From Octopus vulgaris (taxonomy: Eukaryota), in the NCBI GenBank assembly GCA_951406725.2, contig OX597834.1:15934001-15998000 (forward strand): a stretch of DNA of 64,000 nucleotides. Reading direction: 5' to 3'. Below the pieces are notes generated by a model that saw only the letters and a program-made list of their open reading frames with translations, made no database searches and was not told where the DNA came from. The position numbers and the translations under genes were made by a program. Of the stretch, positions 11,488 through 45,089 are shown one piece after another. The number at the start of each line of letters is the position of its first letter. Position 1 is the stretch's first letter.

Positions 11488-11534
11488 CTGATGTTGTTGT
11501 TCCAGACGATCAAGCTGCATTAAGTAGGAGTTAC
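11488..11534 (-). CDS. Internal coding exon (47 nt, phase 1-0): SNSYLMQLDRLEQQHQ
   Basis: Strong polypyrimidine acceptor tttttctcttttccag and consensus donor CAG|gtaagt; only the phase-1 frame is open, and it matches the upstream exon. Confidence 0.85.
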
Positions 11535-12843
11535 CTGGAAAAGAGAAAAAAGAAAAAGGGGGGAATAAATAATGGACTTATATTTTCTGAGAGAAAAAAA
11601 AATCACATTTAGAAAGAAAACAGGGTTCTATTCTTGTTCCATGACTGAATGATTATTGAAAGAGAAAGGAGGATTTATCCATCCAACTATGAAGACATTT
11701 TGTTTTAATTAGTATAAAGTACCAAAAAAATGAAGGAATGGAAACAGAGGAATACAGCAGTTGAATAAACAATAATACCAACCAATCTAGCATAGTACAC
11801 ACAGTTACATAATCTGACACCTAATACTCTATAATAGTGATTCCTAACTTGTGGTCCATGGACCCCTGGTGGTCCACAAGGGTAGCACTAGGGGCCTGTG
11901 AACATGTTAGGCTGACAGAACCTTTCAATATCCTGGTATTCGTGGGAAAACCCAATTCAATAAAAGGGGGTCCTTGGTAGTGAAAAGGCTTGTGTTTGTC
12001 CCCCCAACATCACTTGACAACCAATGCTGGTGTGTTTACGTCCCCGTAACTTAGCGGTTCAGCAAAAGAAACTGATAGAATAAGCACTAGGTTTACAAAG
12101 AATAAGTCCTGGGGTCGATTTGCTTGACTAAGGGCAGTGCTCCAGCATGGCCACAGTCAAATGACTGAAACAAGTAAGAGAGTAAAAGAGAGCATAAGAG
12201 TATGACAACAACGTTCACGTTTAAATATCCTTTTTGTAATTTTGTGTAAAGACATTTGCTAAGGTCTGTTCTGAAACAACAACTTAATAACAAACAGGAA
12301 TATTTTAATAAACCCTTACAAATTCAGGATTATTTTAAAACTCAATTCAAACAACCACCGAGTGAATTGCATTAAAAATACAATCACTAACTGGTTAATT
12401 ATCGTTAGAACAACGGTGAATGAATACAAAGCTGAACAGAAGAGAGATGAAATGATAACGAATAACATCAAATCAGCTGCTTACTTAAGGATTATGTCCC
12501 TCATCCATTTGTAAACGGCACAACTAGATTACTACACAGTCATTTCTGTTAAGACATTGATAGGTTACCTGTGAAAATAGACATAGGCACAGGTATGGCT
12601 GTGTGATAAGAGGCCTGGTTCCCAACCATATGGTTCCAAGTTCAGTCCCACTTTGTAGCACCATGAGCATGTGTCTTTTACTATAGCTCTGGGCTGACCA
12701 AAGCCTTGTGAGTGGATTTTGTAGAGAGAAATTGAAAGCCTGTTATGTATGCATATGTAACCTTCTCCAGCTGACCATCCCTTCAGCTGGTCAGCTTCTG
12801 GCAAACCATCCAGCCCATGTCTGCATGGAAAAATGGATGTTAA

Positions 12844-27357: not shown

Positions 27358-27459
27358 TAAGAACATCAATCATATCAATCATAATTCTTTACTCCCCAGA
27401 CCACATCCAAGTTGTGTTACAAAATGTTATAAATAGAAAAGGCTGACCATCCTACTCAC

Positions 27460-27642
27460 TGTTTAAACCAATGTTGTCGTAGGATGTGGTGTCCACAACT
27501 GGGAAAGGGTACATCTGTTCGACGTTGGCGGCTGACGGGTGAGACACCATGTCAGATAGGGAGTTGCCATGCTGTAAGGGTTTCACAGGGCTGTTTGACC
27601 GAGACGTTGAAGTAGGGCCTGAAGCTTGACCGTTGATTAAAT
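27460..27642 (-). CDS. Internal coding exon (183 nt, phase 1-1): DLINGQASGPTSTSRSNSPVKPLQHGNSLSDMVSHPSAANVEQMYPFPVVDTTSYDNIGLN
   Basis: Acceptor cttctgtttttcttgtag, donor A|gtgagt, 60 uninterrupted codons, GC content above flanks; G+AT gives Asp when joined to the 44686-44790 exon. Confidence 0.9.
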
Positions 27643-27989
27643 CTACAAGAAAAACAGAAGGGAAAAAAGACAGAAAAAATTAATACATTTTATCTCAAAA
27701 TGTCAATATTGTTGTTTAGCTCCAATTTTATTCTTATCAAACAAACCTATGATCCAAGGCTTTCCAACTAGGACCAACACCCCTTTCCCACTCTTTTATT
27801 TTAACAGGGGCAGTGTATCACATGTGCCCTTACCTTATTTTTTATTTTTTTTTTGGGTAGGTTTTTGTCTGGAAGATCTGACCTGCTATTTCTTGTGGGT
27901 CAAGCAATGTTATAACAATGCTCTACACTTATAATTATAAACCATCACCCTTGTATGGACAATATCTTTTAAATATTTACAGAGGAAAA

Positions 27990-41286: not shown

Positions 41287-41670
41287 CTAGCAGTATCGCC
41301 CGGCGTTGCTCGGGTTTGTAAGGGAAATAACTATAAAGCATTTTTAGAGAGTTATAGCCAAAAAATAGCAAAAAAATGAGGAAAAAATTATGGTAAATTT
41401 TTTTTTGATAGTTAAAAAGGTCTAGTTGCGTCCCCTAGACCATCTGTGGTTTGTGTTTCTGATTGTCGACCCCATGTCGAATTTATCGATCTATTTCAGA
41501 ACTGGGGAAACTTTTCAAAATTTTCGCTGCGTTAGTTTTGAATTATGACATTGGGCTATGTGTGTGTCAAGTTTCATCAGAATCGGTTGAAAGCCGTGGT
41601 CAGAGTGAGGGTACGAGAAAACAGACACACAGAAAACGCACAGACAAACTGCCGTTTATATAGAGAGAGA
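41287..41670 (-). mobile_element. Non-autonomous Helitron sharing its 3' end with 22300-22695
   Basis: Identical ctagcagtatcgcccggcgttgctcgggtttgtaagggaaataactata terminus; TC start; A|T insertion site. Confidence 0.8.
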
Positions 41671-41671
41671 T

Positions 41672-41985
41672 ATACCAATTAAGGACTGAACACGAAAAGT
41701 GAACAGTCAACATGCTAGATATAGACGTCAAATCGCAATTCTCCACAAAAGATTATGTTCTCAAATCAAACTTTATTGCTTTGGTTTTGTGCTGAGTTTG
41801 ATTTGAGAACATAATCTTTTGTGGAGAATGGCGATTTGATGTCTATATCTAGCATGTTGACTGTCCACTTTTCATGTTCAGTCCTTAATTGGTATATATA
41901 AATATTTTAATCTTCGGATTCTTTTTTAAAATGCTGGACCACTGGTTTTAATTGATAAATATCAATTTCTACCCTTAATTAATTT

Positions 41986-41990
<5 letters not shown>
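41672..41990. mobile_element. TA-embedded fold-back element (about 105-bp arms plus unique tail)
   Basis: Arms at about 41672-41772 and 41795-41897; the right arm plus tail match a single-arm copy at about 32610-32830. Confidence 0.75.
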
Positions 41991-42027
<37 letters not shown>

Positions 42028-42161
42028 TTTTAAAATAGAAAATTACCCTTTAACAGGTAATTTTCACATGCTAGAAAAAACAGGCAACACGGCCAAAACC
42101 ACAATTTAATAGTAAATTTCGAAGTAAATGAAAAATAAAAACTTTTACCTTAATATTTAAT

Positions 42162-42270
42162 GGTTATACCATGGTTTCAAATTACTTTAGCAAATAATAT
42201 TACTTGCCATCCTTTAATAGGTAATTTAGCAAGACAACATTATCCACCAGGCGAACTCTCATCAGTAACC
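42162..42270 (-). ncRNA. Type I hammerhead ribozyme motif, canonical core, long stem II
   Basis: Minus strand reads ggtta CTGATGA gagtt...(about 80 nt)...aattt GAAA ccatgg TA taacc: stem I ggtta/taacc, palindromic stem III, GUA cleavage triplet. Confidence 0.7.
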
Positions 42271-42801
42271 CGCCTCAATAACTAACTTATAATTCATAGA
42301 CAAGATAACACGTGTCCCATCATTATATGTTATAATTTTTCAAAATACCGTGTGCAGGCACATTTACAGTCAGCAATAAGTACAATGCCGAACTGAATCT
42401 TCGAGAATGCTAAGAACATATTCATAAGATACATATATAGGATGGCGAATATTCGTTATAAATATCACCACCAGTGGCCCAGCATATATAAATAGTCAAT
42501 AGACAACATATTCATATTTTAAAATAGAAAATTACCCTTTAACAGGTAATTTTTACATGCTAGAAATAGCAGCCAACACAGCCGGCCGTGTATCTTATGT
42601 ATATATATATATATATTTATATATGGGTGAAAAGGAACACACGAGTTGATATATATGAAAAAACAAGTCAAGATAGAAAATGCTAAAATAATTTTATAAA
42701 GAACATTTCAGTACCAGTTTCGGTCATTTTGAGACCTTTTCAAATATTCCTTTAAAAAAACTTTTCTTTTAATTTTTCTAAATTTAATTATTTAATCGTT
42801 A

Positions 42802-42839
42802 CAGTTGAAAAGGTCTCAAAATGACTGAAACCGGTACTG
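42802..42839 (+). ncRNA. Minimal hammerhead ribozyme variant (U3-A8)
   Basis: cag TTGAAAA ggtc tcaaaat gact GAAA ccgg TA ctg; the mirror copy on - at 42709-42743 has a perfect ggtc/gacc stem II. Confidence 0.5.
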
Positions 42840-42938
42840 AAATGTTCTTTATAAAATTATTTTAGCATTTTCTATCTTGACTTGTTTTTTCATATACATA
42901 TATATATATATATATATATATCATCATCATCATCATAA

Positions 42939-44685: not shown

Positions 44686-44790
44686 CTGTGTAAGGTAACA
44701 TATTAACACTTGTGCTTCTGAAGAGACTGTCGTAGTTGTTCCGAATAGGAATGTTGTTACCATAGGAACCAGACCGTCGATGGCCTAGGG
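44686..44790 (-). CDS. Internal coding exon (105 nt, phase 1-1) of an unidentified minus-strand gene: xLGHRRSGSYGNNIPIRNNYDSLFRSTSVNMLPYT
   Basis: Acceptor cttcctttcctctgtgttctttgacatattgctacag with an upstream ctaac branch-like motif; donor CAG|gtgaga; open frame; unique, balanced-composition sequence; phase matches the next exon. Confidence 0.85.
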
Positions 44791-45089
44791 CTGTAGCAAT
44801 ATGTCAAAGAACACAGAGGAAAGGAAGCCAGGTTAGTCGACATGCATAGCCTAGAACTGAAGCTCTATTGTCCAACATAGAGAATACGTAAAGAGAAAAA
44901 ACAAAACATACACACACACACATATATATGTATATGTATACACAAACACACACATGAGCACATGCGATAAATACATCCAGTATGTGAAAGCTACAAAAAA
45001 AACAAAAAACATAAATAAAACATAACAAATTGATAACATTAAATGAAGAACAAACTCCAATTAGTATGAAATTTAAGTCTGTGAATGCA

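What the first reader, a model, noticed from the sequence alone, without database searches (positions are those of the whole stretch)
42025..42585. Retrozyme-like monomer: about 490-bp unit with terminal direct repeat and one canonical hammerhead with an unusually long stem II
Seen: a ~70-bp direct repeat (atattttaaaatagaaaattaccctttaacaggtaattt...catgctagaaa) at about 42025 and 42515, (TA)n on both sides, and a canonical CUGAUGA...GAAA/GUA hammerhead at 42162-42270 on the gene's sense strand. A more-than-unit-length insertion is what reverse transcription of a circular RNA would give (inference from the retrozyme model).
Basis: partly seen in the sequence, partly recalled or inferred. Interest (0 to 1): 0.7.

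Follow-up and report, generated by a model that had tools for sequence, protein, structure and literature searches.

The report
Hammerhead retrozyme-like repeat, Penelope-type insertion
This is one worn copy of a scattered, non-coding ~490-base repeat family that carries a predicted self-cutting RNA motif and lands in TA repeats with the end pattern of Penelope-like jumping genes, so it is likely a small hitch-hiking retroelement of a known kind; the long stem is an internal duplication, and neither cutting nor an RNA circle has been shown.

Summary
Two 70-bp direct repeats (5 differences) lie 489 bp apart between (TA)n tracts. One type I hammerhead (42162-42270, minus strand) sits in sense orientation in an intron of a kinase gene. 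The unit belongs to a dispersed family of at least several hundred copies (units about 465, 490 and 512 bp). Stems I and II covary across subfamilies and stem III stays a palindrome (dimer type). Copies are not freely permuted. 3' ends fall at two fixed sites joined to (TA)n, and 5' ends vary. A third of loci carry a back-to-back inverted arm, with one end at each site in 23 of 24 classifiable pairs; this window's 15-nt stub fits. That is the Penelope-like (PLE) insertion signature, so the 'terminal repeat' is a pseudo-LTR overrun. The 80-nt domain II is a derived duplication of a 40-nt form plus a captured 16-nt piece. No locus reaches two full units, and no autonomous parent was found. A circular template is plausible but not shown. 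With one hammerhead, this copy cannot release a monomer, and it folds poorly. The scan noted such elements before on other octopus DNA. New member of a known kind.

The parts
42025..42598 (-). Whole insertion: 1.14 units of the hammerhead repeat on the minus strand plus an inverted stub
42025..42094 (-). 3' copy of the direct repeat; ends at priming site I (about 141 nt after the cut), joined to (TA)n
42514..42583 (-). 5' copy of the direct repeat (overrun into the previous unit, pseudo-LTR); 5 of 70 differences from the 3' copy
42095..42583 (-). One full 489-nt non-coding unit; folds better than shuffles (42090-42578 folded, z -3.65)
42162..42270 (-). Type I hammerhead motif, complete core, predicted cut after GUA (42167/42166)
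42179..42258 (-). 80-nt domain II: basal stem, internal loop and long distal hairpin; duplicated 23-24-nt segments at 42248-42225 and 42208-42186 around a 16-nt piece (42224-42209) copied from the unit's own downstream hairpin
   Evidence: (D6)
42168..42175 (-). Self-complementary 8-nt stem III; no hairpin alone, -11.2 kcal/mol as a self-duplex, so predicted to work as a dimer
42584..42598 (+). Inverted stub: fold-back at the 5' end of the main arm, then a short piece ending at priming site III, joined to (TA)n
41986..42024 (.). (TA)n target tract, left
42599..42622 (.). (TA)n target tract, right
44696..44791 (-). Host kinase exon upstream of the element (MAP3K7/TAK1-like; name recalled from the sequence, Pfam gives only Ser/Thr/Tyr kinase)
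27458..27643 (-). Next matched host exon downstream; the element lies in the intron between the two

Best explanation
It is a decayed copy of a dispersed, non-coding hammerhead repeat family that is likely copied into (TA)n microsatellites by the reverse transcriptase/endonuclease of a Penelope-like element, that is, a non-autonomous PLE passenger of the non-LTR retrozyme kind. Shown: the family, its two fixed 3' ends, variable 5' ends, inverted arms, (TA)n junctions and compensatory changes in the ribozyme stems. Inferred mechanism: the PLE enzyme nicks both strands of a TA tract and primes internally on the RNA at two AT-rich sites, about 130-185 nt and 225-265 nt past the cut site. It copies back through the intact ribozyme junction and stops at random. 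One arm here ran 1.14 units, giving the direct repeat, and the other left a 15-nt stub. The template is likely a ligated circle released from rare two-hammerhead copies by dimeric cleavage (about even odds against an uncut linear tandem RNA). The long stem II likely arose once, by a template jump out to a nearby hairpin and back, and was tolerated because it extends the helix beyond the internal loop. This locus is a dead end: it has one hammerhead and is predicted to misfold.
For: Family: 76 matches from 40 of 1507 candidates scored; 103 and 204 exact hits for two short motifs, 0 for the reversed controls. 3' ends: 89 of 108 join a TA run of 8 nt or more (one anchor is a false hit) against 6.4% of random flank positions; none within 20 nt of the cut. 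Back-to-back arms at 67 of 193 loci; where both ends could be classed, 23 of 24 have one end at each site, and III+III never occurs in 69 pairs. These match the inverted 5'-truncated copy, one-sided tail and (TA)n bias of PLEs (10.1101/2021.04.23.441226 and PMC8557442, passages) and the two internal RT start sites of a Poseidon element in vitro (PMC11167929, parts 1-2 of 4). Covariation in 61 short-form motifs: 38 cells changed on both sides against 13.7 shuffled, for example U-A to C-G in 16 rows of stem I. Stem III variants stay palindromic in three versions. Repeats within a locus are closer than the median between loci in 13 of 13 direct and 24 of 25 inverted pairs. Long forms nest inside short-form diversity: 54 of 58 in one clade, support 0.95, mean divergence 13.8% against 21.3%. 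PLEs with open RT and GIY-YIG frames, ending in (TA)n, exist in this genome.
Against: No autonomous PLE with this unit as its pseudo-LTR among 110 PLE-protein loci from a few families. No locus reaches two full units (maximum 806 nt), and only 2 loci (L005, L014) hold two complete tandem hammerheads, so the tandem-array hallmark of retrozymes is not met. 5' ends do not pile up at the cut (1 of 87 within 3 nt), so the DNA gives no sign of cleavage in vivo. Even the best copies need 4 kcal/mol or more to reach the hammerhead fold as monomers. The covariation counts sequences, not events, and the motifs were picked on the core, so core invariance is by construction. In the PLE tested in vitro, cleavage was not needed for insertion (PMC11167929); 8 of 9 Xenopus retrozyme dimers did not cleave (10.64898/2026.07.22.740005).
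Confidence: 0.8

Rival explanations
1. Linear-template PLE passenger: same enzyme and targets, but the template is an uncut linear tandem or read-through RNA, and overruns come from template jumps. No circle is involved.
For: Autonomous PLEs make partial tandems without known circles, and unprocessed RNA was the dominant substrate in vitro (PMC11167929). Longest locus 806 nt, no multimers. A PLE RT fragment is fused directly to an inverted arm at L083, as a template switch would give.
Against: The steep fall in arm length (10 of 87 reach 300 nt upstream of the cut) makes two-unit copies rare even from a circle, so their absence is weak evidence. Stems have been kept by compensatory change through several subfamilies, which implies that cutting matters. 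No long genomic arrays exist to supply multimeric RNA.
Confidence: 0.4
2. Solo pseudo-LTR: the unit is the end of a longer autonomous PLE, and the copies are its 5'-truncated insertions.
For: Type I hammerheads sit in pLTRs, and most PLE copies are truncated (PMC4209133, passages; preprint).
Against: Copies that run past one unit continue into the same unit, not into an ORF. Among long open frames in 114 loci, the only PLE-type frames abutting a unit were at L083, in a chimeric junction, and that PLE family's own 3' ends lack the unit.
Confidence: 0.1
3. A host-useful intronic ribozyme that cuts the kinase pre-mRNA.
For: Sense orientation in an intron of a conserved kinase gene, with an intact core.
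Against: It is an ordinary family member, 7.5-9.5% from its nearest relatives. It has lost the sixth stem I pair, ranks 29th of 32 long motifs in folding cost (12.9 against a median of 7.3 kcal/mol), and has a dimer-type stem III with no partner nearby. Sense orientation is a coin toss.
Confidence: 0.04

Closest known systems
Metazoan non-LTR retrozymes (Cervera and de la Pena 2020, PMC7229834, passages and Discussion read; Li, Clavereau and Pollet 2026, 10.64898/2026.07.22.740005, parts 1-3 of 5 read)
   Same: Non-coding AT-rich unit with one type I hammerhead, short palindromic stem III, dispersed monomers, PLE proposed as the mobiliser.
   Different: No tandem arrays here (0 of 193 loci with two full units). 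The unit of 463-514 nt is above the 170-400 nt of the first paper but within the 51-972 nt of the second. Expression and circles are not shown.
EN+ Penelope-like elements (Neptune, Hydra, Naiad; Craig et al. 2021, PMC8557442 and its preprint, passages read) and Poseidon PAc (Frangieh et al. 2024, PMC11167929, parts 1-2 of 4 read)
   Same: Partial tandem pseudo-LTR, inverted 5'-truncated arm, tail at one end only, two internal start sites, (TA)n targets, hammerhead.
   Different: No ORF. The two start sites are about 90 nt apart rather than 30-40. No sequence link to an autonomous family was found.
Dimer-type type I hammerheads of newts and PLEs (Cervera and de la Pena 2014, PMC4209133, passages read)
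   Same: Conserved core, 5-6-bp stem I, 1-2-bp stem III with palindromic loop.
   Different: Domain II is 40 or 80 nt with an internal loop and a long distal hairpin, against 4-8 bp in that paper.

Membership tests
Type I hammerhead ribozyme | CUGANGA, GAAA and NUH core with stems I-III in type I order | tested here: met
   the 10.1-11.1 pair is G.U in this copy, as in most short-form copies
Type I hammerhead ribozyme | Compensatory changes in the stems | tested here: met
   8 pairs with two-sided changes, 38 cells against 13.7 shuffled; the pair count alone is not above the shuffles (90 of 500 reach it)
Type I hammerhead ribozyme | Self-cleavage | not testable with these tools
   bench assay needed; folding cost of this copy 12.9 kcal/mol
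Non-LTR retrozyme | Short non-coding unit with a type I hammerhead, many genomic copies | tested here: met
Non-LTR retrozyme | Tandem organisation (dimers to multimers, two or more consecutive hammerhead units) | tested here: not met
   window has 1.14 units; 0 of 193 loci reach two full units; two loci hold two complete tandem hammerheads
Non-LTR retrozyme | Expressed as unit-length linear and circular RNA | not testable with these tools
   only contigs of runs guessed to be RNA were available
Non-autonomous Penelope-like element | Fixed 3' ends, variable 5' truncation, partial tandem pseudo-LTR | tested here: met
Non-autonomous Penelope-like element | Inverted 5'-truncated arm and a tail at one end only | tested here: met
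   67 of 193 loci; 23 of 24 classifiable pairs end at two different sites
Non-autonomous Penelope-like element | Insertion into (TA)n | tested here: met
   89 of 108 ends against 6.4% background
Non-autonomous Penelope-like element | Sequence shared with the pLTR of an autonomous PLE | tested here: inconclusive
   none among 110 PLE-protein loci, but these cover few families and only the top-scoring candidates of thousands
LTR retrozyme (plants) | Type III hammerhead in each of two LTRs, 4-bp target duplication | tested here: not met
   type I motif lying outside the repeats; (TA)n junctions

The most novel reading that the evidence does not exclude
An array-free retrozyme life cycle. The family keeps no tandem master arrays and persists only through RNA circles cut from the roughly 1% of insertions that span two hammerheads, gated by a dimer-only stem III. 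A PLE enzyme re-inserts it by priming both target strands at two fixed RNA sites. Template jumps on that RNA remodel the ribozyme itself (40 to 80 nt domain II) without stopping the lineage. It would be a compact natural substrate for testing how PLE enzymes choose templates and whether the hammerhead is needed.
Probability: 0.35. Interest if true: 0.5.

Novelty: new member of a known kind. Interest (0 to 1): 0.3.

Why it matters
Modestly. It adds DNA-level support, in a mollusc-type genome, to the proposal that animal retrozymes are moved by Penelope-like enzymes: the insertions carry the PLE end signature, including a one-end-at-each-site rule. It also shows a natural subfamily series in which hammerhead stems covary and domain II doubled, which could be used to test how much distal stem II a dimer-type hammerhead tolerates. 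The locus itself is an old, likely inactive copy. Three searches (listings only) showed no paper on octopus retrozymes, and one none on domains II of this length. The library lacks most subscription journals, and supplements were not opened, including those of PMC8557442 and PMC7229834 that may list cephalopod families.

Tried and rejected
Rfam at gathering and E-value thresholds: no hammerhead hit. A PLE thumb-domain family was not in the Pfam copy. Search for an autonomous parent by GIY-YIG, by the L083 RT DNA and by the L069 endonuclease: none found. The idea that 5' ends pile up at the cut, prompted by fold-backs at the cut in L025 and L302, was rejected (1 of 87). My early reading that G.U at 10.1-11.1 was private decay was withdrawn, since it is the rule in short forms. 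Sequencing runs: no RNA holder listed. Contigs of four runs guessed to be RNA show family-like pieces but nothing on strand, ends or circles. A read-based exon map was not obtained. Pfam scans of 287 window ORFs found nothing; the gene came from splice scoring and a protein search. First end-mapping attempts were distorted by a 21-nt subfamily insert and by TA tails in the references and were redone (where four ends are mis-binned). A regex count of arm pairs (27 of 40 mixed) was noisy from internal TA runs and was replaced, where 45 of 69 pairs had an end that could not be classed. The tree used 107 of 135 motifs; 4 long-form outliers lie on long branches. The folding test kept 45 of 137 motifs, those with all forced pairs possible. 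No earlier finding matched by sequence or place.

Full report
Observation. The window holds two 70-bp direct repeats, 42025-42094 and 42514-42583, with 5 differences and 489 bp apart, between (TA)n tracts. On the minus strand lies a complete type I hammerhead: 5-bp stem I, CUGAUGA, 80-nt domain II, GAAA, an 8-nt palindromic stem III and GUA, with the cut predicted between 42167 and 42166. A strict descriptor gives 1 hit in the window and 0 in 200 shuffles. Rfam does not score it. Minus-strand exons at 44696-44791, 27458-27643 and 11488-11535 match one kinase protein in order (MAP3K7/TAK1-like by recall), so the element is intronic and in sense. The genome is animal, 2.8 Gb, and earlier notes on it call it octopus-like.

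Family. The unit has many dispersed relatives. There were 76 matches from only 40 of 1507 candidates scored, 103 exact hits of an 18-nt hammerhead motif and 204 of a 28-nt motif just after the cut, with none for the reversed controls. I analysed 193 non-redundant loci. Repeat spacings within loci are 463-466, 485-494 and 510-514 nt, with one at 537. The window copy is 7.5-9.5% from its nearest relatives.

Insertion anatomy. Of 108 mapped 3' ends, 89 join a TA run of 8 nt or more, against 6.4% of random flank positions. They cluster about 128-185 nt (site I) and 224-263 nt (site III) after the cut, and none lies within 20 nt of it. 5' ends are scattered: of 87 copies picked on the segment after the cut, 79 read through the cut site and 1 starts within 3 nt of it. 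Back-to-back inverted arms occur at 67 of 193 loci. In the 24 of 69 pairs with both ends classed, 23 have one end at site I and one at site III, and III+III never occurs. The window copy follows the rule: its main arm ends at site I, and a 15-nt inverted stub at 42584-42598, attached through a fold-back, ends at site III. 37 loci exceed 520 nt (sample enriched for long matches), the longest is 806 nt, and none reaches two units. L005 and L014 hold two complete tandem hammerheads. So the 'terminal direct repeat' is a variable overrun. Inverted 5'-truncated arms, a one-sided tail and (TA)n targets are described for PLEs, and two internal start sites were measured for a Poseidon enzyme.

The ribozyme. 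In 61 short-form motifs, 38 cells show two-sided changes against 13.7 in shuffles, and slid controls pair at 23-46% against 90%. These are few independent events, and the core was used to pick the motifs. Stem III occurs as two 8-nt palindromes and one 10-nt palindrome in different subfamilies. The 8-mers form no hairpin alone but a self-duplex of about -11 kcal/mol, the dimer-type design described for metazoan type I motifs. The window copy is a poor example. Its best fold pairs the stem I arm with domain II, and forcing the hammerhead costs 12.9 kcal/mol, 29th of 32 long motifs (median 7.3). With one hammerhead, the locus cannot release a monomer.

The long stem II. Domain II comes in two main sizes: 28 motifs of 39-40 nt and 83 of 71-84 nt, with 13 unresolved among 124 (biased to the long type). 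The set chosen after the cut is mostly short. The long form is a duplication of a 23-nt segment around 16 nt copied from the unit's own downstream hairpin; intermediates such as L082 show this nearly letter for letter (D6). Long forms form one clade nested in the more diverse short forms (54 of 58, support 0.95). The basal stem and internal loop are unchanged and only the distal hairpin grows. Unrelated hammerhead families in the fetched flanks have domains II of 49-59 nt, and one loose candidate has 93 nt, so long domains II are not rare in this genome.

Mobiliser. PLEs with open RT and GIY-YIG frames that end in (TA)n are present (Neptune-type by the recalled CxxC linker). None of 110 PLE-protein loci had the unit as its pseudo-LTR. 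At L083 a PLE RT fragment is fused to an inverted arm, a single suggestive chimera. The partner is therefore inferred from the end pattern and is not identified.

Circle or not. Read-through of the cut site and overruns fit a ligated circle, as shown for coral, mussel and axolotl retrozymes. They fit uncut linear RNA with template jumps equally well. The lack of multimers does not decide it, since arm lengths fall steeply (10 of 87 reach 300 nt upstream of the cut). Read data were contigs only. I put the circle at about even odds.

Verdict. Real and correctly described, and a new member of a known kind. It works like a non-LTR retrozyme and meets the tested structural features of a non-autonomous PLE, but it fails the tandem-array feature, so I do not file it as a retrozyme proper. 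Earlier notes of this scan describe similar elements on other octopus DNA; I tested the two-ended rule here myself. Interest 0.3.

Noticed in passing
window 41670-41897 and 42649-42899: Two long near-perfect inverted repeats (103 and 112 nt arms) flank the element, each next to TA runs; the first shares a short motif with the unit's 3' module (D5). They may be fold-back stubs of other TA-targeted families or MITEs.
   Followed up: no
window 42272-42276 and 42249-42252 (minus strand): AGGC upstream of stem I is complementary to GCCU in the domain II internal loop; 4 or more such pairs in 71 of 137 motifs. Candidate loop 1-loop 2 contact, no control run.
   Followed up: partly
L083:2674-4380: PLE RT fragment (about 95% to a separate family) fused directly to an inverted arm of the unit; possible template switch between PLE RNA and the passenger.
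   Followed up: partly
L124 (minus strand, near 2571 from its end): A distinct hammerhead unit with a 39-nt domain II, another palindromic stem III, terminal direct repeat and TA ends, weakly similar to this unit's 3' module (E 0.05): a sister family.
   Followed up: no
L214, L219, L224, L228: Further unrelated type I hammerhead families with long domains II (49-59 nt, one candidate 93 nt).
   Followed up: partly
L141-L146: Young, abundant PLE family with a 771-781-codon RT plus GIY-YIG frame ending in (TA)n; my descriptor found no canonical hammerhead in its pseudo-LTR.
   Followed up: partly
L116 and L068: Short domain II copies that fall inside the long-form clade; possible loss of the duplication or recombination between subfamilies.
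   Followed up: no
L245, L256, L312: Subfamily with N7 = A, a compensated G-C base of stem II and a 10-nt stem III palindrome that could fold as a monomer.
   Followed up: partly
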